64,000 nucleotides of DNA, from NCBI GenBank assembly GCA_041645555.1, contig JBAZPX010000004.1:10334-74333 (forward strand), written 5' to 3'. Positions 403 through 57,745 of the stretch are shown here, in pieces. The translations under genes were made by a program, and so were the position numbers. The notes below the pieces were generated by a model. It did not search any database, was not told the origin of the DNA, and saw only the letters and a program-made list of their open reading frames with translations. The DNA is from Patescibacteria group bacterium (lineage in GTDB: Bacteria; Patescibacteriota; Patescibacteriia; Patescibacteriales; JAQTRU01). Each line of letters opens with the position of its first letter. Positions within the stretch are counted from its first letter, which is position 1.

Positions 403-1620
403 ATGAAATACTTCTTCATCCTAGGCAACAATCCAACCCTATCTATAGCCGAAATTTCGGCTGTTTTTAGCCTGGGCGATAATCCAAAAGCAGAAATCCT
501 TGGCCAGGAGGTTTTTTTATTAGAAACTGAAAATAATTTTAATCCGGCCGAATTAATTAAAAAACTGGGCGGAATAATTAAAATTGGCTCGATCTCCAAT
601 GAATTTAATTTTGATAACCAAAAAATAATAGCCGAAGCGGAAAAATTAATTGATACAAATTATCAGGGAAAAATAAAATTTGGGATTTCTCATTATGGCA
701 ATAAACAACTGAATCTTAAAGTTATCGGCATGGAAATAAAAAAATGCTTGAAAGAAAAAGGCATTAGCGTCCGCTGGGTGGTAGGCCGAGATAAAGTTTT
801 ATCAAGCGTCGTGGTTGAACAAAATAAATTAATCTCACAGGGCGCGGAGATAATTTTAATTCAAAAAGATAACCACGTTTTAATCGGCAAAACTTTAGCG
901 GTCCAGCCGTTTAAAGAACTATCTTTCCGCGATTATGGCCGACCGGGCCGGGATGATTATTCCGGCATGCTCCCGCCGAAGCTGGCACAGATTATGATAA
1001 ATTTAGCCCTACCCCACCCCTCCGGCTCCTCTCTCCTAATTAGGAGAGAGGACGGGGGTGAGGTCATCCTTGACCCCTTCTGCGGCTCTGGCACGATTTT
1101 AACTGAAAGCCTGTTGATGGGCTATAAAAATTTAATCGGTTCTGATATTTCCCCGAAAGCAATTGAAGATACGAAAAAAAATGTTAAATGGATAATTGAA
1201 AATTGGAAATTGAAAATTGGAAATTTAAAATTTTATCAGCAAGATGCGCAAAAAATATCTCAGGAGATTAAATCTAACTCAATAGATTATATAATTACTG
1301 AACCCTACCTTGGCCCGCAAAGAGGGAAAATTGACATAAAAAAAATTGTCCAAGAACTAGAACAATTATATACCAAGTCATTGTCAGAATTCAGTAAAAT
1401 TTTAAAACCGGATGGATGGATAGTTATGATCTGGCCGGTCTTTCGCATAACGCATAACGTAGAACGCATAACGCCAAACATTATTGGCTTTCAAATAATC
1501 AACCCCATTCCGGAAAATTTACGGCAAGACAAGAGAATAAAATTAACCGACAGAAACACGATTATTTACGGACGTGAACAACAAAAAGTCTGGCGGGAAA
1601 TCGTGATATTAGAAAAATAA
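403..1620 (+). CDS. SAM-dependent RNA methyltransferase (Trm11/RlmL-like, THUMP-like N-terminal half)
   Basis: ORF 355-1620 trimmed to ATG 403 (MKYFFILGNNP). Class I methyltransferase motif I ILDPFCGSGT and motif IV-like ITEPYLG. Confidence 0.6.
   Translation: MKYFFILGNNPTLSIAEISAVFSLGDNPKAEILGQEVFLLETENNFNPAELIKKLGGIIKIGSISNEFNFDNQKIIAEAEKLIDTNYQGKIKFGISHYGNKQLNLKVIGMEIKKCLKEKGISVRWVVGRDKVLSSVVVEQNKLISQGAEIILIQKDNHVLIGKTLAVQPFKELSFRDYGRPGRDDYSGMLPPKLAQIMINLALPHPSGSSLLIRREDGGEVILDPFCGSGTILTESLLMGYKNLIGSDISPKAIEDTKKNVKWIIENWKLKIGNLKFYQQDAQKISQEIKSNSIDYIITEPYLGPQRGKIDIKKIVQELEQLYTKSLSEFSKILKPDGWIVMIWPVFRITHNVERITPNIIGFQIINPIPENLRQDKRIKLTDRNTIIYGREQQKVWREIVILEK
1012..1063. repeat. GC-rich palindromic element inserted in-frame in the methyltransferase CDS
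   Basis: Perfect palindrome cctctctcctaa/ttaggagagagg (1028-1051) flanked by ccccacccc and gggggtgagg. It encodes PHPSGSSLLIRREDGGEV just before motif I. Same motif set as the DUF559 gene flanks at 36531-37028. Confidence 0.6.
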
Positions 1621-4103: not shown

Positions 4104-4177
4104 TTGTCCACACTTAAGTCTACTAATTTGTAGACTTAAGTCCTATACTTATCCACATAGATAACAAGTTATCCACA
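4104..4177. promoter_or_regulatory. DnaA-box cluster
   Basis: TTGTCCACA at 4104-4112, and perfect TTATCCACA at 4149-4157 and 4169-4177. An AT-rich tract lies immediately upstream (3841-4100). Confidence 0.4.
4112..4141. repeat. 30-bp palindrome P1 (acttaagtctac-N6-gtagacttaagt)
   Basis: Perfect 12-bp arms with a 6-nt AT spacer. One of six related palindromes in the window. Confidence 0.8.
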
Positions 4178-4188
4178 ACTTCACTCAT

Positions 4189-4218
4189 ACTTAAGTCCAC
4201 TAAAATGTGGACTTAAGT
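4189..4218. repeat. 30-bp palindrome P2 (acttaagtccac-taaaat-gtggacttaagt)
   Basis: Perfect 12-bp arms with a 6-nt spacer. Confidence 0.8.
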
Positions 4219-4265
4219 GTTTTTAATCACATTTTCTCTATCAAAAGAACAAAAGATAAAAATAT

Positions 4266-4290
4266 TTAAGTCCACTATAAACTGGACTTT
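4266..4290. repeat. palindrome P3 (ttaagtccac-tataaa-ctggacttt), imperfect
   Basis: Same half-site family. It ends 8 nt from the tRNA-Cys 3' end. Confidence 0.65.
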
Positions 4291-4298
4291 AAAAAAAG

Positions 4299-4369
4299 AG
4301 GCCTGAGCGGGAATCGAACCCGCGATTGAAGTTTTGCAGACTCCTGCCTTACCACTTGGCTATCAGGCC
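4299..4369 (-). tRNA. tRNA-Cys (GCA)
   Basis: The reverse complement folds as a cloverleaf: acceptor GGCCTGA/TCAGGCC, anticodon arm GGAGT-CTGCAAA-ACTTC, T arm GCGGG-TTCGATT-CCCGC. Confidence 0.9.
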
Positions 4370-5076: not shown

Positions 5077-5439
5077 TTTTAAGGATATAAATTTTGCCCG
5101 ATTTTGCTTTAAGGCTTCCATTTGTATATAAAAATCCCTACCTTTCCATATAGTATGAAAAAATGTAGGGATTTTCTTATCTATGTTATTATCTTATCAC
5201 AGGCAATGAAAAAAGTCAACCAAATTTTTAGAATTTTCACTAAGATTAAACAAAAATAGCTTATTTCTCTTTTGATTTCCTGCTTTGCTCAAAAAATAGC
5301 TTTAATTTCCTAAAATTCAAGATATTGACAAAAATTTTCGTTTATAGTATGATACTATAATGTTCTTTGAGAAATATGGCATTTTACTATATTCTTTACC
5401 AATAAAACAACTCGTTTCCTCTTAGAAGGAGGGTTTGAA

Positions 5440-5982
5440 ATGAAAAGGATCGCGACAATGATTTCGGTGCCGATCATGGTTTTATTAATGGTCGGCTGCG
5501 CCAGTATGCGGAGCGCAACTGTGTCAACAAGCGGAAGCAGCATAAGCTTCAAAGAAAAAAATTTCAGCTTGTTGAGCCCGTCGATTAACCCATACGAGAT
5601 GGCCGAACTGATTGACGCCCAGGCCAGGGCAGAATACATGAAAAACCTGGTCAACAAAACCGGGAGCGGAAAAAAGCTCGGCAACTATTTGATAGCAATC
5701 ATCAATAATGACCCGAGCCAGGAAGCCTATTTCTTTAATCCCGAAATCCCGGGATCGAGAATAACCCTTAAACCCAACGGCGGATTTTTTTTCTTGTCGG
5801 TCCAAACCATACCGGCGGAAATAGCCCTCTACAGGAAAAATGGGGGAAACGCCGAAATATTTTACAAGTTGTATCCGCTTGACGATATGAGTGTGGGGCG
5901 ATACAACGACAGCGTTGGATACAAAAAAAGCGTAATGGGGGTCGAAGTCGACCAAAGGTACATTATTAATAAGATCTATTAA
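5440..5982 (+). CDS. hypothetical lipoprotein
   Basis: Strong SD (aaggaggg) 6 nt upstream. Signal peptide with lipobox LMVGC. No recognisable domain. Confidence 0.6.
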   Translation: MKRIATMISVPIMVLLMVGCASMRSATVSTSGSSISFKEKNFSLLSPSINPYEMAELIDAQARAEYMKNLVNKTGSGKKLGNYLIAIINNDPSQEAYFFNPEIPGSRITLKPNGGFFFLSVQTIPAEIALYRKNGGNAEIFYKLYPLDDMSVGRYNDSVGYKKSVMGVEVDQRYIINKIY

Positions 5983-14030: not shown

Positions 14031-14390
14031 TTAAATAACATCCTTATAATGTTTAATCTTAGCCATTTTTTCCTGCCGGCTGATATCGACAGAAATGAAG
14101 TCCAGCCTAACTAAATTTTCATCTAGATTATTTTCATAAATATAAAATTCCAGAGCCTTTTTCAGATTACTCAATTTTTTAGATTCAAAAGCGTCCTCGG
14201 CGCTTCCAAAAATTGATGATAATCTGGTTTTTACCTCAACAAAAATCAGCGTTTCCCCAACCCGGGCAATAATATCTATTTCCTTAAAACTAATTTTTAC
14301 ATTGATGTCTATGATCTTATAGCCATGTTTTAATAAATAGTCCCTAGCCAAATTCTCGCCAAATTTTCCCACCACCTGTTTATAATTCAT
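14031..14390 (-). CDS. yraN: YraN-family endonuclease (UPF0102)
   Basis: GENLARDYLLKHGYKII..EIDIIA..LIFVEVKTR..RLDFISV matches the YraN pattern. Confidence 0.75.
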   Translation of the reverse strand: MNYKQVVGKFGENLARDYLLKHGYKIIDINVKISFKEIDIIARVGETLIFVEVKTRLSSIFGSAEDAFESKKLSNLKKALEFYIYENNLDENLVRLDFISVDISRQEKMAKIKHYKDVI

Positions 14391-14457
14391 ATGACCAGAA
14401 AAATAAAAAGACCTTAATCGGCCTTTTTATTTTATTATTTTATTATTTTTTTATTTT

Positions 14458-31200: not shown

Positions 31201-31292
31201 CTACAAATTACGAATTTATTACGAATTTACAAATATAATATAAAACGTTTTAATGAAAATTCGTAAATTTGTATAAGATTTGTAATTCGTAG
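31201..31292. repeat. TACRAAT hairpin element, copy E3
   Basis: ctacaaattacgaatttattacgaatttacaaata / aattcgtaaatttgtataagatttgtaattcgtag. Confidence 0.8.
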
Positions 31293-34169: not shown

Positions 34170-34634
34170 GTGAAAAAGAGACTGCAAATCCGCATGCAAA
34201 CCGACAACAACAGCGTTCGGGCCAGCCAGGCCGGTATTAACCGCTATTATGAGGGAAAATACCTTATTTCCGATATTACTTCGATAACCGACGTCTTCTG
34301 CGGCTCCACCATCGCCAGTCTTCAAACGACTTTGGCCGCCTGTTGTGCAAATGGCATGAAGCTCCCCTTGCACGAAACCGACCTCAGCAGCCTCGGAACA
34401 ACCGAGGAAATGCCCGCGGCCGATCTCGTCCAGGCGGCTATCCGAGATGCTTTCACCAAAATCAAGAACGGCGGTCACGGTCTTATCTTCTGCGACCTCC
34501 GGACCATTCAGGTGATTATTTCCTCGTTCGGCCTTAATATTATCGACACTCATCCCAGACCCTGCGAAGGTTTCATGTTCGAGCAGGACGACCAGGACGA
34601 AATCACCGTCCCCGGAATCCTCCGGATACTTTAA
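34170..34634 (+). CDS. GC-rich Cys/His-rich protein of unknown family, paralog A (154 aa)
   Basis: SD ccaaggagga plus a GTG start. Shares MKKRLQIR, TDVFCGS, ACCANG, GHGLIF and CEG.M.EQDD..ITV.GIL with paralog B, and many aligned codons differ only at the third position. Confidence 0.7.
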   Translation: MKKRLQIRMQTDNNSVRASQAGINRYYEGKYLISDITSITDVFCGSTIASLQTTLAACCANGMKLPLHETDLSSLGTTEEMPAADLVQAAIRDAFTKIKNGGHGLIFCDLRTIQVIISSFGLNIIDTHPRPCEGFMFEQDDQDEITVPGILRIL

Positions 34635-34733: not shown

Positions 34734-35747
34734 TTATAACGTCGTAATCGGCCGAGACTGGGTAATATAAAATTTTCCTTTTTCCAAAGCCCACTCTATA
34801 TCCTGCGGCTTTTTATAATGCTTTTCAATCTTGGCGCAAAGTTTAGCCAGCTCTATAATTTCCTTACCGGTTAAAGTCTGCTTGCCCTGGTCCGCTTTCG
34901 GAACTTTCTTCCAGATATTTCCGCCCCGCATGTTTTGCACCAGCATTTTTTCCTGCTCGGAGACGTTTATATCAGACAAGCTAAAATCCCGTTTATCAAT
35001 TACATAAGTGTCTGGGGTAATTTGGCCGGAGACGATGGCTTCGCCTAAGCCATACCCGGCTTCAATTACCATCTGGTTTCTGTCTTTCGTAATCGGATGG
35101 ACCGTAAAGCAAATTCCGGAAATTTCCGACTGGACCATTTTCTGAATTACCACGGCCACTGACACTTTCTGGTCAACCATTTTTTTTTCAAAGCGGTAAA
35201 AAATCGCCCGCGGGGTAAAAAGAGACGACCAGCATTTTTTCACGTTGGTAAGCAATCCTTTTTCTTCGGTATTAAGATAAGTTTCCAACTCTCCGGCCCA
35301 GGAAGCGATAGAAGAATCTTCGGCCGTGGCTGAAGACCTGACGGCCACGTACTTAGCTTTAAGTTTTTTAAACTCAGTTGTAATTTCCTTAGCCAGTGGT
35401 CCCGGAATCATCGTGTCCTGCATAATATCGCGGATAACGTTTGAAGCCTGGTCAATGGAATTAGTGTCGTCGTAATTCACTTTGGAAATCTGGGCTTCTA
35501 TATCCAAGCCGGTTTCAGAGGCCGGAGACTTTGGCGTGTTAACCATGAAATAATCAAAAGCCGGAGCCAAAATTACGAATCCAGGTGGAACCGGGTTTGA
35601 TTTAGCCTGCCCGCCGCCCGCCTGCCGGCGAGGCAGGAAGAGGTGGGTCATTTCCCCTAAAGAAGCGCCTTTGCCTCCAGCAATCCCAACATTTTTTTTG
35701 CTAATTTTAGAGAAATCTTTAATAAATTCCTGTTTTTTCCTTGACAT
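34734..35747 (-). CDS. stand-alone PEP/pyruvate-binding ATP-grasp domain protein (PPDK_N, N-terminal module of PEP synthase/RPH-type dikinases)
   Basis: VGIAGGKGASLGEM..VPPGFVI..VAVRSSATAEDS..SFAG-like..QDIEWALEKGKFYITQSRPIT. No swivel or PEP-binding TIM-barrel domain in this ORF. Confidence 0.8.
   Translation of the reverse strand: MSRKKQEFIKDFSKISKKNVGIAGGKGASLGEMTHLFLPRRQAGGGQAKSNPVPPGFVILAPAFDYFMVNTPKSPASETGLDIEAQISKVNYDDTNSIDQASNVIRDIMQDTMIPGPLAKEITTEFKKLKAKYVAVRSSATAEDSSIASWAGELETYLNTEEKGLLTNVKKCWSSLFTPRAIFYRFEKKMVDQKVSVAVVIQKMVQSEISGICFTVHPITKDRNQMVIEAGYGLGEAIVSGQITPDTYVIDKRDFSLSDINVSEQEKMLVQNMRGGNIWKKVPKADQGKQTLTGKEIIELAKLCAKIEKHYKKPQDIEWALEKGKFYITQSRPITTL
35605..35649. repeat. GC-rich hairpin stretch inside the ATP-grasp CDS
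   Basis: gcctgcccgccgcccgcctgccggcgaggcagg, with hairpin cctgcc-ggcga-ggcagg. It encodes LPRRQAGGGQA between the conserved GEM and VPPGF blocks. Confidence 0.5.
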
Positions 35748-35881: not shown

Positions 35882-36439
35882 TTGAAGAAGAGACTGCAAA
35901 TTCGTAGACACACCGACAAGAACGGCGAGCAGGCCAGCCAGGCCGGACTTGGCCGTTTCCGCCACGAAAATCTCGTCGACGCTCCCAAAACCGTCACCGA
36001 TGTTTTCTGTGGCTCCCATCTCAGCCGAACCGCCCAGACCGCCCTCGGTGCCTGTTGCGCCAACGGCATCAAGGCCTGTGTCCATGAAGCCGATCCGAGA
36101 TTCGGCACCTCCGAGATGTTCGACGGCTGGAAAGCCAGAGGGCTCCTCGACAAAGTCAAGGCAGCCGGAAGCCTGTACGCCGCGCTCCTGCTGATTCTCG
36201 ACGAGAAGGAACTCGACCTGGTTCGGACCGCCCTCAAGAACGCGACCGAAGAGGCCTTCTGCAAGATCGAAGATGATGGACACGGGCTCATCTTCCACCA
36301 TTCGCCCTTGGTGGAACTGACCGCCACGATCTTCGGCTATCCCGCCGAAACCCTCAAGCTCGCTTCCTGCGAGGGGATCATGCTTGAACAGGACGATGAC
36401 GGCGACATCACCGTCACCGGAATCCTTTACGCCGCCTGA
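35882..36439 (+). CDS. GC-rich Cys/His-rich protein of unknown family, paralog B (185 aa)
   Basis: SD ccaaggagga plus a TTG start. Same conserved blocks as paralog A, plus a ~30-aa internal insertion. Confidence 0.7.
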   Translation: MKKRLQIRRHTDKNGEQASQAGLGRFRHENLVDAPKTVTDVFCGSHLSRTAQTALGACCANGIKACVHEADPRFGTSEMFDGWKARGLLDKVKAAGSLYAALLLILDEKELDLVRTALKNATEEAFCKIEDDGHGLIFHHSPLVELTATIFGYPAETLKLASCEGIMLEQDDDGDITVTGILYAA

Positions 36440-36461
36440 TCCCTCGGCACAACATCATGAA

Positions 36462-36517
36462 GACCGATTCTTCTAAGCAAGAAACATTTGCTTTAGGAGA
36501 CTCGGTCCTTTTTTTTT
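36462..36517 (+). terminator. long-stem intrinsic terminator, cassette B
   Basis: gaccgattcttctaagcaa-gaaacat-ttgctttaggagactcggtc followed by ttttttttt. The loop region is similar to the cassette A terminator. Confidence 0.75.
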
Positions 36518-36530
36518 ATCCAAACACCGC

Positions 36531-37028
36531 ACCTCACCCCCCGTCCAAACTACCTCACCCCCGACCCCTCCCCTAGTCAGGGGAGGGGGAATTAAATAAA
36601 TCTTTTCTGATTTTATTTAAAACTGCTTCTATATTATTCTCAACTTCTTTATTTTTAAATCTTATAATTTTATAGCCGGCTTGCTTTAAGATATCTTCTC
36701 TAATTAAGTCCACTTCTTTTATCTCCCTTTTATTATGAACTCCGCCGTCAATTTCTATTATCAATCTTTTTTGGGGACAATAAAAATCAATAATAAAATT
36801 ATAAACTCCCAAAACCAATGGCTCCTGCCGCCTAAATCTAAAGCCTAATTTTCCATCCCCTAGTTCTCTCCAAAGTATTTTTTCGGCTTTGGTCATATCC
36901 TGCCGAAGCGCTTTAGCTATATATAATATTTTTGTATTTCCCGACATATAGATATCATCTCCCCCGGCCCCTCTCCTGACTAGGAGAGGGGAAGCGATCC
37001 GCCAGCTGGCGGAGAGACGGGGTGAGGT
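36531..37028. mobile_element. DUF559 endonuclease gene unit bounded by inverted GC-rich ends (putative selfish element)
   Basis: acctcacccc (36531-36540) is the exact reverse complement of ggggtgaggt (37019-37028). Internal palindromes cccctcccc-tagtca-ggggagggg (36565-36588) and cccctctcctgac/taggagagggg (36968-36991). Confidence 0.45.
36573..36947 (-). CDS. DUF559 (Vsr/restriction-endonuclease-like) domain protein
   Basis: ORF trimmed to MSGNTKILY. LR...T.AE..LW..L......FRRQ....Y..DFYC....L.IE.DG..H, then IIRF.N.EV. Confidence 0.7.
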   Translation of the reverse strand: MSGNTKILYIAKALRQDMTKAEKILWRELGDGKLGFRFRRQEPLVLGVYNFIIDFYCPQKRLIIEIDGGVHNKREIKEVDLIREDILKQAGYKIIRFKNKEVENNIEAVLNKIRKDLFNSPSPD

Positions 37029-37041
37029 GCGGGCCGTAAAA

Positions 37042-37977
37042 TCACCCAACAATCGAAATTTTCGTTCCATCAATCACAACCTCATCTCCATTTTTTAAAA
37101 TCTTAGTCGCATTTTTAACGTTCACCAGGCAGGGTTTTTTTGCCTCCCGCGCCAAAGTCGCGACGTGGCAGGTCAAACTTCCTCTTTCTATAATAAAGCC
37201 AGAGATATGGCTGCGCAAGGTCGGCAATAATTTCATATCTGAATCAGGCAAAACTACAATATCTCCTTTAACAACTTTATTTTTATCTTTAGCGGTTTTT
37301 ATAATTCTAACTTTGCCTTTGGCCTTGCCGGGTGCGGCCAAAACTCCGGATAACTCTTTAAAAGGACTAGCCCTTAATTCTTTCTCCAATTCTTTTTTCA
37401 TATTTTTAAAATCTTTTATTAAAATGGTTTTTATGCCCATTCTTTTAGCGTCAATCAAATTACTCTCATTATCATCTATATAAATTACTTCTTCCGGTTT
37501 TACCTTAAACCTTTTTAAGACTAACCTCAAGGTCTCTTCGCTCGCTTTAGGCAAATTAAGCTCCCAGGTATTGATAATATTTTTAAATATTTTTTTTAAA
37601 CCAAATTTTTTTGTTACGTCCGCCAGCTGGCTGCGGGTATTTTTGGAAAGAAGCAAGGTCTTATAACCCCCTTTATTAAGCTCCCGATTTAATTTAACCG
37701 TTTCTTTATTAAGTTTCATTAAGCTATAATGCAATTTTTTAATTTCCGGCAGAGAAATCGGCAATTTAAAATAATCAATCGGTTCAAGCCAGGCTTGTTT
37801 CTGCGTGATCTTCCTGGTGGCAGCTAAATTCATATATTTATGATAAAAAACCTTGTGGTAATCCTGCCAGCGGCCGCCGAATTCCTTAGCCAAAGCTTTG
37901 GCGGTATTGGGATAACCCTCATTTAAAACTAAACCATAGCAATCAAAAATAATAAGCTTTATTTTATTCTTTCCCAT
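37042..37977 (-). CDS. HAD-like hydrolase fused to a PEP-utilising phosphohistidine swivel domain
   Basis: HAD motifs IIFDCYG, LLLSKNT and YIDDNESN. C-terminal GSLTCHVATLAREAKKPCLV. Confidence 0.7.
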   Translation of the reverse strand: MGKNKIKLIIFDCYGLVLNEGYPNTAKALAKEFGGRWQDYHKVFYHKYMNLAATRKITQKQAWLEPIDYFKLPISLPEIKKLHYSLMKLNKETVKLNRELNKGGYKTLLLSKNTRSQLADVTKKFGLKKIFKNIINTWELNLPKASEETLRLVLKRFKVKPEEVIYIDDNESNLIDAKRMGIKTILIKDFKNMKKELEKELRASPFKELSGVLAAPGKAKGKVRIIKTAKDKNKVVKGDIVVLPDSDMKLLPTLRSHISGFIIERGSLTCHVATLAREAKKPCLVNVKNATKILKNGDEVVIDGTKISIVG

Positions 37978-37979
37978 AA

Positions 37980-39533
37980 TTATTTAATAATTCTTACTAA
38001 ACCCTTGTCCGCGTCCACCTCTACCCTATCTCCATCTTTTAAAACTTTAGTGGCGATTTTCGTCCCGACCACGCAGGGAATTTTTAATTCCCGAGCCACA
38101 ATCGCCGCGTGGCAGGTCAAGCCGCCGATATTAGTGACAATGGCCGCGGCTTTTTTCATAGCCGGCACCAAGGCCGGATAAGTGGTTTCCGAAAGCATAA
38201 TGTCCCCTGGCTTCATTTTCGGCATATCTTCAATCGTTTCTATAATTTTTACTATTCCCCGGGCTTTGCCAGGAGAAGCGGTCTGGCCGGAAAGCTCATT
38301 AACTTTCTTAATTTTTTCTTTCTCCCACTTCGTCTTTTTTAAAAAATCATGCGCCCTTTTCCCGGAATAAACATAAACTTTTTTCCAGGTGCCGTGCATA
38401 ACAGAAAATTTAGGTCTTTCGTCCAGGTCCCTGGTGTTAAATTTACCAGCCAGGAGCGCTTCCCCAAACTCTTCCCTGGTCATAAATTCCGCCTGCTTGT
38501 AGCTTATAAACAACCGCCGGGCAATTTCTTTAACAAACTGGTTGGCCACATAAGCGCCAAAATACATGCAATCCTTGCGGTAAGCTTTCAGCCAGACAAT
38601 ATAGCGGGCCTCCCTAAAAAGTTCTTCGCGCTTGGCATCAAATTTTAATTTAGCCAGAAAATTTTTCTGCTCTTTTTTTAGCTTGCTATATTTAACTTCT
38701 GATTCTTTAAGATACTCTCTAGTTTTTCCTTCCCGAATAAGGCCTCGCCAAACCTCAAGGAAATAATCAAATTCCAAAATCGGCCCGCGATAATTATAAT
38801 GAAGCCAAAACCATTTTTTCTGATGATTTTCTATCTTTTTAAATAAAGCTGGTTTTTGCTTTTTAAGCTCCTTCTCTATTTTAAAAACGTCATCATTCTT
38901 CTTAAAAGTCAGAGCGGCTTTTTTATCTTTAGAAATTTCATAAGCCATTTTTAGGCTTTCCTGATTTTCAATTTCTACAAAACTGGGGCGTAAGGGCGTG
39001 GTAACAAGAGGAAAAACGCTGGACGGCTCAAGCTTTAATTTATCTTTTTTAATTTTGTCTTTTAAATAATTAAAAAGGTAATTGGAAAATAACTGGTAAT
39101 CGGCATCAATCAGCCAGGTCGTGGCCTGGCCGAAGCCGTGGCTTCTGATCTGCAATTCAAGCAACCGGTCAAATTTTTTTATCAACTGTGCGTCGGATAA
39201 TTTTTTTAAATTAAAATTCAATAAAGATTTAGAAAAAAGCAAATATTCTTTGGCAAAAATTTCCACATTCCTATTCATCTTTGCCAGCCAGGGCAAATCC
39301 GTTGTCGCTTTGAAAAAAATATTTTTTACCATTTTATCAAATTCTCTCCGCACGTAACAAAGATTAAAAACCCCGTCTCTTATCACCCAAATTAGCTGCT
39401 TGAGAGCGTCTCCCAACCCTTGTTGCTTCAAACGTCTGCCATAATCAATAAAAACATTATAGGTCATAATATAATTAGCATCCGGAATTCTTTCCGCCAC
39501 AAACCAGATGGTTTGTTTCTTGTTTTTTGCCAT
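37980..39533 (-). CDS. unknown helical domain fused to a C-terminal PEP-utilising swivel domain
   Basis: 517 aa. C-terminus PGKARGIVKII..MKPGDIML..GGLTCHAAIVARELKIPCVVGT. Confidence 0.7.
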   Translation of the reverse strand: MAKNKKQTIWFVAERIPDANYIMTYNVFIDYGRRLKQQGLGDALKQLIWVIRDGVFNLCYVRREFDKMVKNIFFKATTDLPWLAKMNRNVEIFAKEYLLFSKSLLNFNLKKLSDAQLIKKFDRLLELQIRSHGFGQATTWLIDADYQLFSNYLFNYLKDKIKKDKLKLEPSSVFPLVTTPLRPSFVEIENQESLKMAYEISKDKKAALTFKKNDDVFKIEKELKKQKPALFKKIENHQKKWFWLHYNYRGPILEFDYFLEVWRGLIREGKTREYLKESEVKYSKLKKEQKNFLAKLKFDAKREELFREARYIVWLKAYRKDCMYFGAYVANQFVKEIARRLFISYKQAEFMTREEFGEALLAGKFNTRDLDERPKFSVMHGTWKKVYVYSGKRAHDFLKKTKWEKEKIKKVNELSGQTASPGKARGIVKIIETIEDMPKMKPGDIMLSETTYPALVPAMKKAAAIVTNIGGLTCHAAIVARELKIPCVVGTKIATKVLKDGDRVEVDADKGLVRIIK

Positions 39534-39542
39534 ATCAAAAAA

Positions 39543-41420
39543 TTAACTCTTTTTTAATATTTTTACTAAGCCCTTATCCGCATCCACCTCTACTATATCC
39601 CCATCTTTTAAAACTTTAGTGGCGATTTTCGTGCCGATAACGCAGGGGGTATTTATCTCCCGGGCGACAATCGCGGCGTGCGAAGTTACTCCGCCCTGGT
39701 CTGTGACAAAAGCCGCGGCTTTTTTCATGGCCGGCAATAAATCCGGCTGGGTGGAGATGGAAACTAAAATATCTCCCGGTTTCATCTTCCCCATATCACG
39801 AATTACATTTATAATTCGAACCACTCCTTTGGCATACCCCCTGGCCCCGCATTGGCCCTTTATTTCCGAGACCTCCTTTATTTCATCTGGCTCTATATAT
39901 TTTACTATTTTTTTGGCCTCCTCGCCACTATAGAAAAGATGCTCACCCTTAGCCGTGTAATAAACGGAAAAGTTAACTCTTTTTTTTATCTCTCCTTTAT
40001 CTAAAACACCGCTAAATAAACCGTTATAAATTTCTTCGCTGGTCATGAACTTTACCTCCTTTAAGGAGAGACCCAGGCGCCGGCCAATTTCGGAAAGCAC
40101 CGGCACCATCCGATAAATAGCAAAAATCTGGGCATAGCGCCGATAAATTTTTGTTACCATAAACTCGCCCCAGGCGTTAAAAAATTTCAGGAGCCGGCCT
40201 TCTATTTTTAATTTTTTAATCAGCAATTCCCGCTCGAGCCAGTCCTTTTTCCGTTTAGCCTCGCTTTCCTTAAATGCCTTGGCCAAATTATTATTATTGC
40301 TGACCAACCTCACTAAAGCTTTTAAATAATGCTCGAGGCTATAAATGCCCTGCTCTTCGGTAAAGAGAAATTTAGTATAAAAATATTTAGTATAATGGCT
40401 TTCCAAATCGTCTAATATGTCCTTTCTGATTTTGCCTTTCAACTGCCTTACTTTTTCTTCAAATTTCTCTTCGTATTCGGGGCTGTGGGCGTATAAATCG
40501 AATTTCTTTACTTCCTCGTCCTTGAATCTTTTAAAAAGTTCCCTGAATAAATTAAGCTGCTTTTTATCTTCCTGAATTTTGATGCCTATTTTTATAAGAT
40601 CATTTTCTTCTATCGCGAGCAAAGATAATTTTTCCGGCTGGGCAAGAATTACTAAGCTCTGGCCGATATTTTTTTCCGATACCCCCAGGCCGGTTAAGAT
40701 TTTTTCTCCCCGGCCGGTTAAATTATTAGAAAACATATCCGCTGCGACCGGAATCCAGCCCCATTGGTAATATTCGGTATGGATGTCTTCATGGCCCTTA
40801 TACAAATTCCAAAGCTCCTTATCGGATAATTTTCCCAAATTATCTTCGGGCAGTTTAGAAACATACTGCCGGAGCTTATCAGAATGATTGACAATTTCTT
40901 TATTGACCTTGTCCATAAAATCCTGATCGCTCTCGAATTTATCAACCAGATGCTCCCCCACTTCATAAGCGTCTTTTTTATCATAATAAAACCAGAGATT
41001 GTATTTCTTATGGACCGAGACCACTTTTTTATAAGCCCGGCCGCCCGGAGAAGCAAATTCATCCACGAAACAGTTGGCAAATATTTGGTAAAAAAACGGG
41101 TCAGTATTCTTTAATTCTTCGGCCAGCAGCCACTCGGTCTCAAATTTACTTTTTGAGTCACCGGCCCTGTTTTTATTAAATAAATTTATCAGCTCTTTCG
41201 CGGAGTTAAAATTAGAATTTAGGCCATAATATTTTTTATTGCCTTTGCTAATTACTTTTATTACTTCCTCTCGGGCTAATTTCGTAAGCTCCCTGGTAAT
41301 ATTAGCCGGGTCTTTGCTTAACTTTGAGGCAATCTCTGATAAATAAAAAGTCTTGCCTTGATTTTGGGTTAATAAATCAAGGATTTCGTAAGAAGTTTTG
41401 GATTTAAATAAATTTTTCAT
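39543..41420 (-). CDS. winged-HTH domain plus unknown helical domain plus C-terminal PEP-utilising swivel domain
   Basis: ORF trimmed to MKNLFKSK. N-terminal wHTH (YLSEIASKLSKDPANITRELTKL). C-terminal GGVTSHAAIVAREINTPCVIGT. Confidence 0.7.
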   Translation of the reverse strand: MKNLFKSKTSYEILDLLTQNQGKTFYLSEIASKLSKDPANITRELTKLAREEVIKVISKGNKKYYGLNSNFNSAKELINLFNKNRAGDSKSKFETEWLLAEELKNTDPFFYQIFANCFVDEFASPGGRAYKKVVSVHKKYNLWFYYDKKDAYEVGEHLVDKFESDQDFMDKVNKEIVNHSDKLRQYVSKLPEDNLGKLSDKELWNLYKGHEDIHTEYYQWGWIPVAADMFSNNLTGRGEKILTGLGVSEKNIGQSLVILAQPEKLSLLAIEENDLIKIGIKIQEDKKQLNLFRELFKRFKDEEVKKFDLYAHSPEYEEKFEEKVRQLKGKIRKDILDDLESHYTKYFYTKFLFTEEQGIYSLEHYLKALVRLVSNNNNLAKAFKESEAKRKKDWLERELLIKKLKIEGRLLKFFNAWGEFMVTKIYRRYAQIFAIYRMVPVLSEIGRRLGLSLKEVKFMTSEEIYNGLFSGVLDKGEIKKRVNFSVYYTAKGEHLFYSGEEAKKIVKYIEPDEIKEVSEIKGQCGARGYAKGVVRIINVIRDMGKMKPGDILVSISTQPDLLPAMKKAAAFVTDQGGVTSHAAIVAREINTPCVIGTKIATKVLKDGDIVEVDADKGLVKILKKS

Positions 41421-41640
41421 ATTAATTCGGATGAGCGCAATTTGTAGAATGCGCATTTAATACTTATTTTTGTTTAATAAACAATAATTTTTGTCTATTA
41501 AACATAATACCTCTCTTCTCGCCTAAATGTCAAGACCGAAAAAGGAACTTGACTTCTATTAAAGATTAAGTTAATATCAAACTATTAAATCATTAAAGGC
41601 AGTCTATATTTCTAGCTCTCTAGGAAGCTGCAAAATAATT

Positions 41641-47179: not shown

Positions 47180-47254
47180 AAAAAAAGTTGCCCTCCTTGT
47201 AAAGGAGGGATGGGGAGGTTTTTAAACCCCCTTTGTCCCCCTTTCGAAGGGGGA
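47180..47254 (-). terminator. tandem GC hairpins (terminator region) between the 91-aa gene and infB
   Basis: ccctcctt-gtaa-aaggaggg (47191-47209) is followed on the minus strand by caacttttttt. A second hairpin gtccccctt-tcg-aagggggac lies at 47235-47254. Confidence 0.5.
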
Positions 47255-57609: not shown

Positions 57610-57745
57610 CCCCACCTCACCTCCGCCTCGGCAAGCCTCCGGCCCGCTTCTCCGCCAGCTGGCGGATTCAGCGAGGCGAGCGAGACGGGCTAGCCCTCTC
57701 CTTAAATCCCCCTTACCCCCTTTACCGAAAGGGGGTATAAAAAGG
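57610..57745. repeat. composite of GC-rich palindromic modules
   Basis: cccacctcacc, ccgcctcggcaagcc, tccgccagctggcgga (also at 36998-37013), ttcagcgaggcg (also in tRNA-Val insert 2), and the cccctttaccgaaaggggg hairpin. Confidence 0.6.

What the first reader, a model, noticed from the sequence alone, without database searches (positions are those of the whole stretch)
36531..37028. DUF559 endonuclease gene bracketed by inverted GC-rich ends: candidate autonomous member of the palindromic-element family
What the sequence shows: the 10-mer acctcacccc (36531-36540) is the exact reverse complement of ggggtgaggt (37019-37028). Inside each end sits a near-perfect palindrome (36565-36588 and 36968-36991). 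The right flank also holds tccgccagctggcgga, which recurs at 57651-57666. The longest ORF for this gene starts inside the repeat, giving the peptide ..SPRLSASWRIASPLLVRRGAGG, which is why I trimmed it to Met 36947. The unit sits directly between cassette B and the swivel-domain genes.

Inference: a Vsr/REase-fold nuclease gene with terminal inverted repeats, together with short ORF-less look-alikes elsewhere (1012-1063, 57610-57745), fits a homing or selfish element with non-autonomous derivatives. No transposase is present, so any mobility would have to depend on the nuclease or on host recombination.
Basis: partly seen in the sequence, partly recalled or inferred. Interest (0 to 1): 0.6.

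Follow-up and report, generated by a model that had tools for sequence, protein, structure and literature searches.

The report
Small nuclease gene bracketed by hairpin repeats
A 124-residue DUF559 (Vsr-like) nuclease gene in a Patescibacteria genome sits between inverted GC-rich hairpin repeats, and related genomes show the same layout, precise empty sites and gene-less copies, so it looks like an apparently undescribed kind of selfish DNA cassette.

Summary
The inverted ends are 14 nt and perfect (36527-36540 / 37019-37032). Each flank holds a perfect 10-bp-stem hairpin, and the gene is a DUF559/Vsr-fold nuclease under purifying selection.

The layout is not a local accident. In 43 of 78 related cellular DUF559 loci from several phyla, the gene's flanks form lineage-specific inverted repeats of the form outer motif + GC-rich hairpin. 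About 4 would be expected by chance. Only 4 of 36 viral relatives pass, all marginally. Such hairpins are 9-fold enriched in the flanks.

There are three signs of mobility:
- Close homologs sit at three different chromosomal sites.
- At the GlyRS|MBL-hydrolase site, three genomes are precisely empty, two hold the DUF559 unit, and one holds a ~150-nt gene-less two-hairpin version flanked by an 8-nt duplication.
- Synonymous divergence of the gene is decoupled from that of its neighbours.

Short gene-less modules, including window 1011-1064, are in-frame insertions in conserved genes whose orthologs are empty.

Best reading: a selfish nuclease cassette with cognate hairpin ends and non-autonomous derivatives, analogous to REP/RAYT or to homing elements. 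That the nuclease itself drives movement is inferred, not shown. I found no description of this in the searchable literature.

The parts
36527..37032 (-). The whole unit: outer motif + hairpin, DUF559 gene, hairpin + outer motif
   Evidence: The same bounded architecture is found in L001, L005, L006, L007 and L008.
36573..36947 (-). DUF559 (Vsr/EDxHD-fold) nuclease CDS, 124 aa. The last 5 codons (SPSPD) and the TAG stop are encoded by the hairpin.
   Evidence: Pfam PF04480 E=7e-32, 110 bits against a cut-off of 20.6. PDB 3HRL E=9e-14. AlphaFold2 model pLDDT 86.5; Foldseek 3HRL E=1e-7 and I-Bth0305I 3R3P E=7e-4. dN/dS 0.08-0.23. The start at Met 36947 is supported by homolog N-termini.
36527..36540 (.). 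Outer inverted-repeat arm, CCGCACCTCACCCC, on the 3' side of the gene
   Evidence: I3: 14 nt, 100% complementary to 37019-37032.
36552..36562 (.). Second copy of the outer motif ACCTCACCCCC
   Evidence: D8 and I15.
36565..36588 (.). Hairpin on the 3' side of the gene: CCCCTCCCCT agtc AGGGGAGGGG
   Evidence: I16. DNA fold -12.7 kcal/mol.
36968..36991 (.). Hairpin on the 5' side of the gene: CCCCTCTCCT gact AGGAGAGGGG
   Evidence: I17 and I1.
36956..36966 (.). Degenerate gene-proximal arm (CATCTCCCCCG). It pairs with the outer motif, so the 5' flank on its own resembles a complete gene-less element.
   Evidence: 36955-37032 folds at -24.4 kcal/mol, z = -4.0, and 0 of 200 shuffles fold as well.
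36998..37013 (.). Optional second palindrome TCCGCCAGCTGGCGGA, between the hairpin and the outer motif
   Evidence: A similar palindrome sits at the same position in L013, and a related stretch (CTCCGCCCGCTGGCAGAG) sits there in L005.
37019..37032 (.). Outer inverted-repeat arm, GGGGTGAGGTGCGG, on the 5' side of the gene
   Evidence: I3.
1011..1064 (+). Gene-less 54-nt module (ACCCCACCCC, hairpin, GGGGGTGAGGT), inserted in frame in a Trm11-like methyltransferase gene
   Evidence: -18.6 kcal/mol, z = -4.3. The ortholog in L140 is empty. Orthologs in L141 and L142 carry diverged palindromes.
57610..57745 (+). Intergenic composite remnant: outer motif ACCTCACCTCC, the same 16-nt palindrome, half a hairpin (CCCTCTCC), then a hairpin of another family (CCCCCTTTACCGAAAGGGGG)
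47191..47254 (.). Two further hairpin modules of related syntax but other families: CCCTCCTT gta AAGGAGGG + ATGGGGAGGT, and TCCCCCTT tcg AAGGGGGA
   Evidence: A similar pair occurs in L141 around 14353.

Best explanation
The unit 36527-37032 is a selfish DNA cassette. It consists of a small DUF559 nuclease gene (Vsr/EDxHD fold) bounded by cognate terminal inverted repeats, each made of a GC-rich hairpin plus an adjacent GGGGTGAGG-type motif. Gene-less versions exist: two-hairpin versions, and single modules of 40-55 nt. The short modules are found even in frame inside conserved genes.

Shown by the data:
- the nuclease fold, and catalytic-type residues that are invariant and under purifying selection;
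- the inverted hairpin ends, recurring in lineage-specific versions in several phyla;
- occupied and precisely empty orthologous sites;
- a gene-less derivative at the same site as gene-bearing units;
- divergence of the gene decoupled from that of its neighbours.

Inferred, not shown:
- The nuclease recognises the hairpin-plus-motif module, or the unoccupied target, and nicks or cuts there.
- Host recombination and repair then copy the cassette into the broken site, as in homing.
- The short modules spread with the help of the same enzyme, as REP/REPIN sequences do with RAYT.

The cassette appears to have no promoter of its own and is probably read through from the upstream host gene. Its outer motif can supply a Shine-Dalgarno-like sequence to the gene downstream, which would lower the cost of insertion.
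For: Architecture in close homologs:
- The same ends bracket homologs at three different sites: the swivel|phosphatase-like site (window, L001, L006/L090), the GlyRS|MBL-hydrolase site (L005, L007), and next to yidC (L008).

Family-wide survey:
- 43 of 78 loci exceed their own 95th-percentile control, 37 of 78 exceed all 200 controls, and repeats reach 49 nt.
- Only 4 of 36 viral relatives pass, all marginally. Fisher P = 5e-6.
- Hairpin density is 3.79 per kb in the flanks and 0.42 per kb in the background.
- Extra cognate copies nearby are rare, so this is not a dense background repeat.

Insertion polymorphism at the GlyRS|MBL-hydrolase site:
- Empty in L195, L196 and L197. L195 comes from the same genome as L001, which has its DUF559 unit at the other site.
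- DUF559 unit present in L005 and L007.
- A ~150-nt ORF-less element with two hairpins and complementary ends in L194, flanked by an AAAATATG direct repeat.
- A 25-nt target duplication in L005.
- Occupancy is patchy relative to host-gene identity.

The swivel site lacks the unit in L091 and L092.

Discordant divergence:
- Window vs L001: DUF559 dS 0.24, neighbours 0.59-0.73 (P <= 2e-4).
- Window vs L006: DUF559 dS 1.04, neighbours 0.71-0.73.
- Nucleotide identity peaks over the ORF only.
- Protein identities do not group by insertion site.

Nuclease:
- Pfam DUF559; D54, E65, D67, H71 and D80 invariant in 23 homologs.
- dN/dS 0.08-0.23.
- The fold matches 3HRL and the homing endonuclease I-Bth0305I.

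Short modules inserted in frame, with empty orthologs:
- Trm11-like methyltransferase.
- MBL hydrolase in L007 and GlyRS in L005.
Against: - No cleavage or mobility was observed; everything is comparative.
- 35 of 78 surveyed loci fail the two-sided inverted-repeat test. Several, such as L013, L029 and L086, have a complete module on the upstream side only. The gene could therefore simply sit next to such modules.
- No target duplication is visible at the window's own site. Where duplications are seen, their lengths are inconsistent (8 nt and 25 nt).
- The gene appears to be single-copy and syntenic in three related genomes. That is unlike an active transposon, although it resembles RAYT genes.
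- A 124-aa protein lacks the extra DNA-binding domain that I-Bth0305I has.
- Only 64 kb of the genome is visible, so I cannot count modules genome-wide or test co-occurrence with the nuclease.
- The survey covers only relatives at 40% identity or more, not the whole DUF559 family.
Confidence: 0.6

Rival explanations
1. Passenger model. The hairpin-plus-motif modules are the mobile entities and are moved by some other, unidentified enzyme or by host processes. The DUF559 gene is merely caught between two modules, as in a composite transposon, or it tends to sit next to them.
For: - Gene-less modules are found in frame inside conserved genes, with empty orthologs, and need no internal gene.
- Several DUF559 loci have a complete module on one side only.
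- The window's 5' flank folds as a complete gene-less element on its own.
- Other module families occur in the window with no nuclease nearby.
Against: - It does not explain why this one small gene family is bracketed in many phyla by lineage-specific modules in inverted orientation, while modules are otherwise rare in the same loci.
- No other candidate enzyme lies in the neighbourhood, which consists of core genes only.
Confidence: 0.2
2. Host repair enzyme. The gene is a solitary very-short-patch-repair-type (Vsr-like) endonuclease serving the cell, like VsrA of Caulobacter. The flanking palindromes are incidental, or they regulate the expression of a potentially toxic nuclease.
For: - One studied DUF559 protein, VsrA, behaves as a Vsr-like endonuclease functionally linked to a cytosine methyltransferase (PMC12907096).
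- Purifying selection on the gene.
- Synteny across three related genomes.
- The hairpin's 3' arm AGGAGAGGGG resembles a Shine-Dalgarno sequence and lies 13-44 nt upstream of the start codon in the close homologs.
Against: - No cytosine methyltransferase lies within about 10 kb.
- The Pfam scan (E <= 0.01) listed DUF559 but not the Vsr family.
- Precise empty sites, a gene-less derivative at the same site and discordant dS are not expected of a housekeeping gene.
- Mismatch types in imperfect hairpins are symmetric on the sense strand (13 G:T-type, 13 A:C-type), so there is no sign of selection on a sense RNA structure.
- The same modules occur inside unrelated coding regions.
Confidence: 0.13
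3. Invertible segment. The inverted repeats are substrates for a site-specific recombinase that flips the gene as a programmed inversion.
For: 'DUF559 domain-containing protein' is enriched (odds ratio 14) among predicted programmed-inversion targets in a survey of bacterial genomes (PMC9881135). That enrichment probably reflects these same inverted repeats.
Against: - No recombinase gene is nearby.
- The gene has the same orientation relative to its neighbours at the two sites seen in more than one genome: window, L001 and L006/L090, and L005 and L007.
- No promoter lies inside or at the edge of the unit that an inversion could switch.
Confidence: 0.04

Closest known systems
REP / REPIN elements with their RAYT genes (REP-associated tyrosine transposases)
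   Same: A usually single-copy nuclease gene is flanked by cognate palindromic repeats in inverted orientation. Each repeat is a hairpin plus a short conserved adjacent motif. Short gene-less copies are dispersed in the same genome. The gene is often inherited at a fixed site.
   Different: The enzyme is a Vsr/PD-(D/E)XK-fold DUF559 protein, not an HUH Y1 transposase. The modules appear far less numerous: about 5 hairpins in 64 kb. The modules are also found in frame inside coding regions, whereas REPs are extragenic. The hosts include Patescibacteria, Chloroflexota and Bacteroidota.
EDxHD-family homing endonucleases (I-Bth0305I; PMC3239194, PMC3384342)
   Same: The catalytic fold is the same (Foldseek 3R3P, TM-score 0.76-0.79 normalised by target length). 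Acidic and His residues are invariant. The same chromosomal site is either occupied or precisely empty. The gene's divergence is decoupled from that of its host genes.
   Different: The gene is free-standing, with no intron or intein (Rfam found nothing). The protein is only 124 aa, without the additional DNA-binding region. It is bounded by hairpin-bearing inverted repeats, which homing endonuclease genes do not normally have. Viral relatives lack these repeats.
Restriction-modification genes flanked by inverted repeats, or inserted with long target duplication (Furuta, Abe and Kobayashi 2010, PMC2853133)
   Same: A restriction-endonuclease-fold gene is flanked by inverted repeats, with empty sites in related genomes. 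L005 has a 25-nt target duplication.
   Different: There is no methyltransferase partner. The ends are structured hairpin modules shared with dispersed gene-less copies. The arrangement is family-wide across phyla rather than found in sporadic cases.
Rickettsia palindromic elements, and the small dispersed repeats of cyanobacteria
   Same: Short palindromic elements are inserted in frame into conserved protein-coding genes, and orthologs lack the insert.
   Different: Those elements have no associated enzyme gene. The modules here are shorter (40-55 nt) and GC-rich in an AT-rich genome. I did not test sequence relatedness.
MITEs and their parent insertion sequences
   Same: Terminal inverted repeats, internally deleted gene-less derivatives (L194), and a short direct repeat at one insertion (8 nt).
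   Different: No DDE, serine, tyrosine or HUH transposase is present. The target duplications are inconsistent.
Vsr and the Vsr-like VsrA (DUF559) of Caulobacter (PMC12907096)
   Same: The protein family and fold are the same, and the activity is plausibly a nicking endonuclease.
   Different: No linked or nearby cytosine methyltransferase was found. The mobile-element features listed above are not described for VsrA.

Membership tests
Pfam DUF559 (PF04480) | Profile match above the curated gathering score | tested here: met
   110 bits against a cut-off of 20.6, E=7e-32. NCBIfam PRK09767 gives 67 bits, below its equivalog cut-off of 218, so the protein is not that equivalog.
EDxHD homing endonucleases (I-Bth0305I type) | Vsr-like catalytic core fold | tested here: met
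   AlphaFold2 model pLDDT 86.5. Foldseek 3R3P_B E=7e-4; TM-score normalised by target 0.76-0.79 for chains B and A.
EDxHD homing endonucleases (I-Bth0305I type) | Conserved E, D, H, D catalytic residues | tested here: inconclusive
   D54, E65, D67, H71 and D80 are invariant in 23 homologs. I did not check their residue-by-residue equivalence to I-Bth0305I.
EDxHD homing endonucleases (I-Bth0305I type) | Resides in a group I intron or an intein | tested here: not met
   No Rfam intron match. The gene is a free-standing ORF between two host genes.
EDxHD homing endonucleases (I-Bth0305I type) | Cleaves the unoccupied target site | not testable with these tools
   This needs purified protein. Candidate empty sites are available from L195, L196 and L197.
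Vsr very-short-patch repair endonuclease | Match to the Vsr family profile and linkage to a C5-cytosine methyltransferase | tested here: not met
   The Pfam scan (E <= 0.01) listed DUF559, MTES_1575, PvuRts1I-like_N and DUF2726, but not the Vsr family. No methyltransferase is among the genes scanned within about 10 kb. The rest of the genome was not visible.
REP/REPIN-RAYT system | The enzyme is an HUH Y1 (IS200/IS605-like) transposase | tested here: not met
   The protein is DUF559, PD-(D/E)XK fold.
REP/REPIN-RAYT system | The gene is flanked by cognate palindromic repeats in inverted orientation | tested here: met
   43 of 78 loci are significant.
REP/REPIN-RAYT system | Many dispersed gene-less copies in the same genome | tested here: inconclusive
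   There are 2-3 further related modules in the 64 kb, and 0.19 extra cognate copies per 10 kb in the surveyed loci. A whole-genome count was not possible.
Insertion sequence / MITE | Terminal inverted repeats | tested here: met
Insertion sequence / MITE | Target-site duplication of fixed length | tested here: inconclusive
   8 nt (AAAATATG) in L194, 25 nt in L005, and none seen in the window or at the in-frame modules.
Insertion sequence / MITE | A recognised transposase | tested here: not met
   The unit holds only the DUF559 ORF.
In-frame palindromic elements (Rickettsia RPE-like) | In-frame insertion in conserved genes, absent from orthologs | tested here: met
   Trm11-like methyltransferase: the segment is 29 aa in the empty form, against 41 aa in the window. 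L007 MBL hydrolase carries +14 aa and L005 GlyRS +12 aa.
Programmed inversion (inverton) | Both orientations are observed and a recombinase is nearby | tested here: not met
   The orientation relative to neighbours is the same at both sites seen in more than one genome. There is no recombinase nearby.

The most novel reading that the evidence does not exclude
DUF559 proteins of this subfamily would be the enzymes of a phylum-spanning, previously unrecognised class of nuclease-only mobile elements. In this reading a Vsr-fold nuclease, together with its cognate hairpin-plus-motif ends, spreads by break-and-repair. It also seeds families of 40-150-nt gene-less palindromic modules that are found in frame inside essential genes. 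That would make it a REP/RAYT-like system built on a different enzyme, and a source of the GC-rich peptide inserts seen in Patescibacteria proteins.
Probability: 0.35. Interest if true: 0.85.

Novelty: new variant of a known kind. Interest (0 to 1): 0.72.

Why it matters
DUF559 is a very large family of small proteins with no agreed function. A conserved coupling to hairpin-bearing inverted repeats would give the family a testable role, as the nuclease of a selfish cassette. It may also explain why DUF559 genes were statistically enriched among predicted inversion targets in a survey of bacterial genomes (PMC9881135).

It offers a candidate origin for the GC-rich palindromic peptide inserts that interrupt conserved proteins in Patescibacteria and other phyla. 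It would also add a second enzyme class to the REP/RAYT type of long-lived intragenomic replicator.

On the practical side, it flags a systematic annotation error: DUF559 ORFs are extended into the flanking repeat. It also points to small nucleases with long, structured recognition sites.

Tried and rejected
- Rfam, at gathering scores over the whole window and at permissive E-values over 36400-37150, gave only tRNAs and one chance-level hit. No known RNA family or intron is present.
- Selection on a sense RNA structure: mismatch types in imperfect hairpins are symmetric, so I found no support for an RNA-level hairpin.
- Target-site duplications: none at the window's site or at the in-frame modules. 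Only L194 (8 nt) and L005 (25 nt) show direct repeats.
- An empty GlyRS|MBL-hydrolase site inside the window: those genes are not in the window. I had to fetch related genomes instead.
- A dense cognate repeat population around DUF559 genes: extra copies within ~10 kb are rare.
- The 23-sequence alignment A2 was too diverse for the locus search. I used A3 instead.
- Pfam and NCBIfam on the two GC-rich 'cassette' ORFs gave no hit.
- Defence-system profiles gave only weak hits at the level of the nuclease domain.
- The two DUF559 paralogs in L066 were meant as a test of cognate gene-repeat pairing. The second copy's inverted repeat scores only 10, so I do not rely on this.
- Seven literature searches (DUF559; EDxHD; Vsr/palindromic/REPIN; COG2852/PF04480/ycjD; in-frame palindromic elements in the Candidate Phyla Radiation; long target duplication; small dispersed repeats) found no description of this architecture.
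Full report
**Observation.**

- The terminal inverted repeat is 14 nt and perfect: CCGCACCTCACCCC at 36527-36540 and GGGGTGAGGTGCGG at 37019-37032.
- ACCTCACCCCC occurs twice on the left.
- Each flank holds a perfect 10-bp-stem, 4-nt-loop hairpin, at 36565-36588 and 36968-36991. The two differ by one compensated C:G to T:A pair, and their loops (agtc / gact) are reverse complements. They are therefore inverted copies, not direct copies.
- The 16-nt palindrome TCCGCCAGCTGGCGGA is exact at 36998-37013 and 57651-57666. With up to 3 mismatches there are 3 matches against 0.10 expected.
- The hairpin pattern has 4 hits in the window against 0 in shuffles. The outer motif has 7 hits against 1.75.
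- The flank-versus-flank inverted alignment scores 19, against a control mean of 8.2; 5 of 2000 controls reach it.

**The gene.**

ORF 36573-36947 (minus strand) is a DUF559 protein.
- Pfam PF04480 gives 110 bits against a cut-off of 20.6.
- The closest solved structure by sequence is 3HRL, an uncharacterised 'endonuclease-like protein'.
- An AlphaFold2 model (pLDDT 86.5) matches 3HRL and the catalytic domain of the homing endonuclease I-Bth0305I, with TM-score 0.76-0.79 normalised by target. More weakly, it matches PvuRts1I/AbaSI and the endonuclease domain of R2 retrotransposons.
- D54, E65, D67, H71 and D80 are invariant in 23 homologs.
- dN/dS is 0.08-0.23, so this is a functional protein and not a relic.
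The public 165-aa model (P0001) runs into the repeat.
- The last five codons and the TAG stop are supplied by the hairpin.
- The organism is a Patescibacteria (CPR) metagenome-assembled genome.
- The neighbourhood consists of core genes: S15, NYN, PNPase, S16, TrmD and IF-2, plus an array of PEP-utilizer swivel paralogs and a stand-alone PPDK_N gene. It contains no integrase, transposase or methyltransferase.

**Close relatives carry the same bounded unit in different places.**

Read in the sense of the gene, the layout is: [ACCTCACCCC, spacer, CCCCTCTCCT-agtc-AGGAGAGGGG], gene, [CCCCTCTCCT-gact-AGGAGAGGGG, spacer, GGGGTGAGGT]. It recurs at these loci:
- L001 (89% protein identity, same site as the window).
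- L006/L090 (73%, same site).
- L005 and L007 (75% and 70%, between GlyRS and an MBL-fold hydrolase).
- L008 (52%, next to yidC/rnpA/dnaA).

**Family-wide survey.**

I fetched 80 loci from one genome per GTDB species, selected only by similarity to the protein (40-89% identity).
- For each locus I aligned the 130-nt upstream flank to the reverse complement of the downstream flank. I compared the score with 200 window pairs at the same spacing in the same locus.
- Of 78 usable non-redundant loci, 43 exceeded their own 95th percentile (about 4 expected) and 37 exceeded all 200 controls.
- The repeats are lineage-specific versions of one syntax, an outer motif plus a GC-rich hairpin:
  - CACCTCAACCCCCAG-CCCCTTCTCCTCAAGGAGAAGGGG in Bacteroidales (44 nt, 43/44).
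  - GACCTATCCCC..CCCCTTCCCTGAAAGGGAAGGGG in Anaerolineae.
  - ACCCCCTAACCCCCTGAAGGGGG in Chitinophagaceae.
- Positive loci come from Patescibacteria, Chloroflexota, Bacteroidota, Latescibacterota, Saganbacteria and others.
- GC-rich hairpins occur at 3.79 per kb in the flanks and 0.42 per kb in the rest of the loci.
- Extra cognate copies elsewhere in the same ~10 kb are rare, at 0.19 per 10 kb. The flanks are therefore not sampling a dense background repeat.
- As a negative control, DUF559 relatives on viral contigs (27-46% identity) lack such flanks. 4 of 36 are barely above their own threshold, with a maximum score of 12.5. Fisher P = 5e-6.

**Insertion polymorphism.**

At the GlyRS|MBL-hydrolase site the hydrolase gene normally starts directly behind a TATAAT box, which looks like a leaderless-type start.
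- In L195, L196 and L197 the site is empty, for example ..GCTATAATTAAAATATGTCTGCCAAACTTTATAAAATTTTATTG.
- L195 comes from the same genome (GCA_028716725.1) as L001, which has its DUF559 unit at the swivel site.
- In L005 and L007 the DUF559 unit sits exactly at that start codon. In L005 the first 25 nt of the hydrolase gene are duplicated on both sides.
- In L194 the same position holds a ~150-nt element with no ORF. It has complementary outer motifs (CCTCACTCCCT / AGGGATGAGG) and two hairpins separated by 19 AT-rich nt, and it is flanked by the direct repeat AAAATATG. It folds at -35.5 kcal/mol, z = -4.1.
- Occupancy is patchy. Hydrolase identity to L005 is 82%, 81% and 79% for the empty L196, L197 and L195, 81% for the gene-less L194, and 71% for the filled L007.
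- At the window's own site the unit is absent from L091 and L092, whose PPDK_N is 84% and 80% identical. In L092 the same slot holds an 84-aa GIY-YIG nuclease gene without GC-rich hairpins.

**Decoupled divergence.**

- Between the window and L001, DUF559 has dS 0.24. The adjacent PPDK_N and PNPase have dS 0.73 and 0.59. This corresponds to 15 of about 73 synonymous sites changed, P <= 2e-4.
- Between the window and L006 the order is reversed: DUF559 1.04, neighbours 0.71-0.73.
- Nucleotide identity between the window and L001 peaks over the ORF (88-96%). It is lowest in the repeats (49-69%, with indels).
- Protein identities do not group by insertion site.
- This is what recurrent replacement or horizontal re-invasion at a fixed site would produce. 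The sample is small.

**Short gene-less modules.**

- 1011-1064 is a 54-nt palindromic module: ACCCCACCCC, hairpin, GGGGGTGAGGT. It folds at -18.6 kcal/mol, z = -4.3.
- It lies in frame inside a Trm11-like methyltransferase gene, immediately before the DPFCGSGT motif.
- Among 120 homologs, the segment from PPKLAQIMINL to DPFCGSGT is 29 aa in about 35 proteins. Most of the others carry 2-53 extra residues with peptides typical of translated GC-rich palindromes, from at least three families.
- Orthologs next to ychF show the following:
  - L140 is empty.
  - L141, which comes from the same genome as L001, has a different version.
  - L142 has a third version.
  - Each version is a perfect palindrome that differs from the others on both arms.
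- L007 carries a hairpin-plus-motif module inside its MBL hydrolase (+14 aa, absent in L005). L005 carries one inside GlyRS (+12 aa, absent in L007).
- 57610-57745 is a composite remnant.
- 47191-47254 holds two modules of other families.

**Level of selection and expression.**

- Hairpins stay perfectly palindromic while their sequence drifts.
- In imperfect hairpins, G:T-type and A:C-type mismatches on the sense strand are equal, 13 each. I therefore see no evidence for selection on a sense RNA structure. The constraint, or the generating mechanism, seems to act on DNA.
- No promoter-like site precedes the gene on its own strand. The upstream swivel gene ends 10 nt before the unit, so read-through transcription is likely (inference).
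- At the hydrolase site the outer motif GGTGAGG lies 2-3 nt before the host gene's ATG, where it could serve as a ribosome-binding site (inference).

**Mechanism.**

The best-supported reading is a selfish cassette: a Vsr-fold nuclease with cognate hairpin-bearing ends and non-autonomous derivatives.

Two features favour a homing-like step, in which a break is repaired by copying the cassette. These are same-site recurrence with precise empty sites, and the decoupling of the gene's dS from that of its neighbours. The hairpin-plus-motif ends and the dispersed short modules parallel REP/REPIN elements with RAYT.

The recognition and cleavage steps are inferred. There are three rivals:
- The gene is a passenger between independently mobile modules.
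- It is a host Vsr-like repair enzyme, as proposed for Caulobacter VsrA (PMC12907096).
- The unit is an invertible segment.

The first rival is the hardest to exclude, because some loci have a complete module on one side only.

**Literature.**

- Papers that mention DUF559 treat it as a Vsr-like PD-(D/E)XK family or an EDxHD homing-endonuclease relative (PMC3424549, PMC1189080, PMC3384342, PMC9403480).
- A survey of programmed inversions lists 'DUF559 domain-containing protein' as enriched 14-fold among predicted targets. That list is the paper's only mention of DUF559 (PMC9881135). The repeats described here may account for the enrichment.
- Restriction-modification genes flanked by inverted repeats, or inserted with long target duplication, are the nearest described precedent (PMC2853133).
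- I found no description of this architecture. The searchable library is incomplete, so prior description elsewhere cannot be excluded.

**Limits.**

- Only 64 kb of the genome is visible.
- The survey covers relatives at 40% identity or more.
- Most sequences are metagenome assemblies. However, the same unit is present in independent NCBI, ENA, JGI and Logan assemblies.
- No experiment was possible.

Noticed in passing
window 403-1617 (insert at 1011-1064); homologs P0025-P0144: In this Trm11-like methyltransferase, the loop just before the DPFCGSGT motif is an insertion hot spot. About 35 of 120 homologs are empty (29-aa segment). Most of the others carry 2-53 extra residues from at least three different GC-rich palindrome families (SPSPxQGEGRGEV, PPLTKGGRGDF, VETRHCLVS), and the last is tandemly repeated in P0070. 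Why one site is hit repeatedly is unexplained. The empty allele reads GATGATGT where filled alleles read GGTGAGGT.
   Followed up: partly
window 47191-47254; L141 around 14330-14395: There are two adjacent hairpin modules of other families upstream of the IF-2 gene: CCCTCCTT..AAGGAGGG + ATGGGGAGGT, and TCCCCCTT..AAGGGGGA. A similar pair occurs in the related genome.
   Followed up: no
window 34170-34634 and 35882-36439: The two GC-rich 'cassettes' are paralogous ORFs (38% identity) that are open on both strands, and each is followed by a hairpin plus T-run that looks like an intrinsic terminator. Neither has a Pfam or NCBIfam hit. The N-termini of the ORFs at the same position in L006, L091 and L092 (..RHAPH.., ..RHGAH..) suggest divergent histidine-phosphatase-like proteins. 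L001 and L092 hold detectable homologs.
   Followed up: partly
window 34734-35747 and 37042-41456: A stand-alone PPDK_N (ATP-grasp) gene lies next to an array of at least three genes that each end in a PEP-utilizer swivel domain. One is fused to a HAD hydrolase and one to a MarR-like HTH. L001 has even more copies.
   Followed up: no
L092 2932-3186; L001 2246-2527: In L092 an 84-aa GIY-YIG nuclease gene occupies the intergenic slot that holds the DUF559 unit in the window, and it has no GC-rich hairpins. L001 has another small GIY-YIG gene upstream of the swivel array. The slot may be a general landing site for small nuclease genes.
   Followed up: partly
window 4110-4289 and 31201-31292: Three AT-rich hairpins built on ACTTAAGTCYAC lie next to the tRNA at 4299-4369. 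A 50-nt AT-rich palindrome lies between the NYN and PNPase genes.
   Followed up: no
window 37619-37634: A near-copy of the 16-nt palindrome (TCCGCCAGCTGGCTGC, 2 mismatches) lies inside the HAD-swivel gene. It may be chance.
   Followed up: no
L022 about 5370-5470; L085 4841-4916 and 5374-5453; L066 1725-2120 and 4947-5330: Some DUF559 loci carry tandem arrays of the half-element. L066 has two DUF559 paralogs (64% identical) 3 kb apart. The first has a clear 63-nt inverted repeat and the second only a weak one.
   Followed up: partly
L012, L013 (labelled Gammaproteobacteria MAGs): These loci have DUF559 proteins about 60% identical to the Patescibacteria protein. L013 has a window-type module upstream, including a second palindrome at the same position, and L012 has related GC-rich palindromes. 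Their GC content is low (31-41%). This could be mis-binning or horizontal transfer.
   Followed up: no
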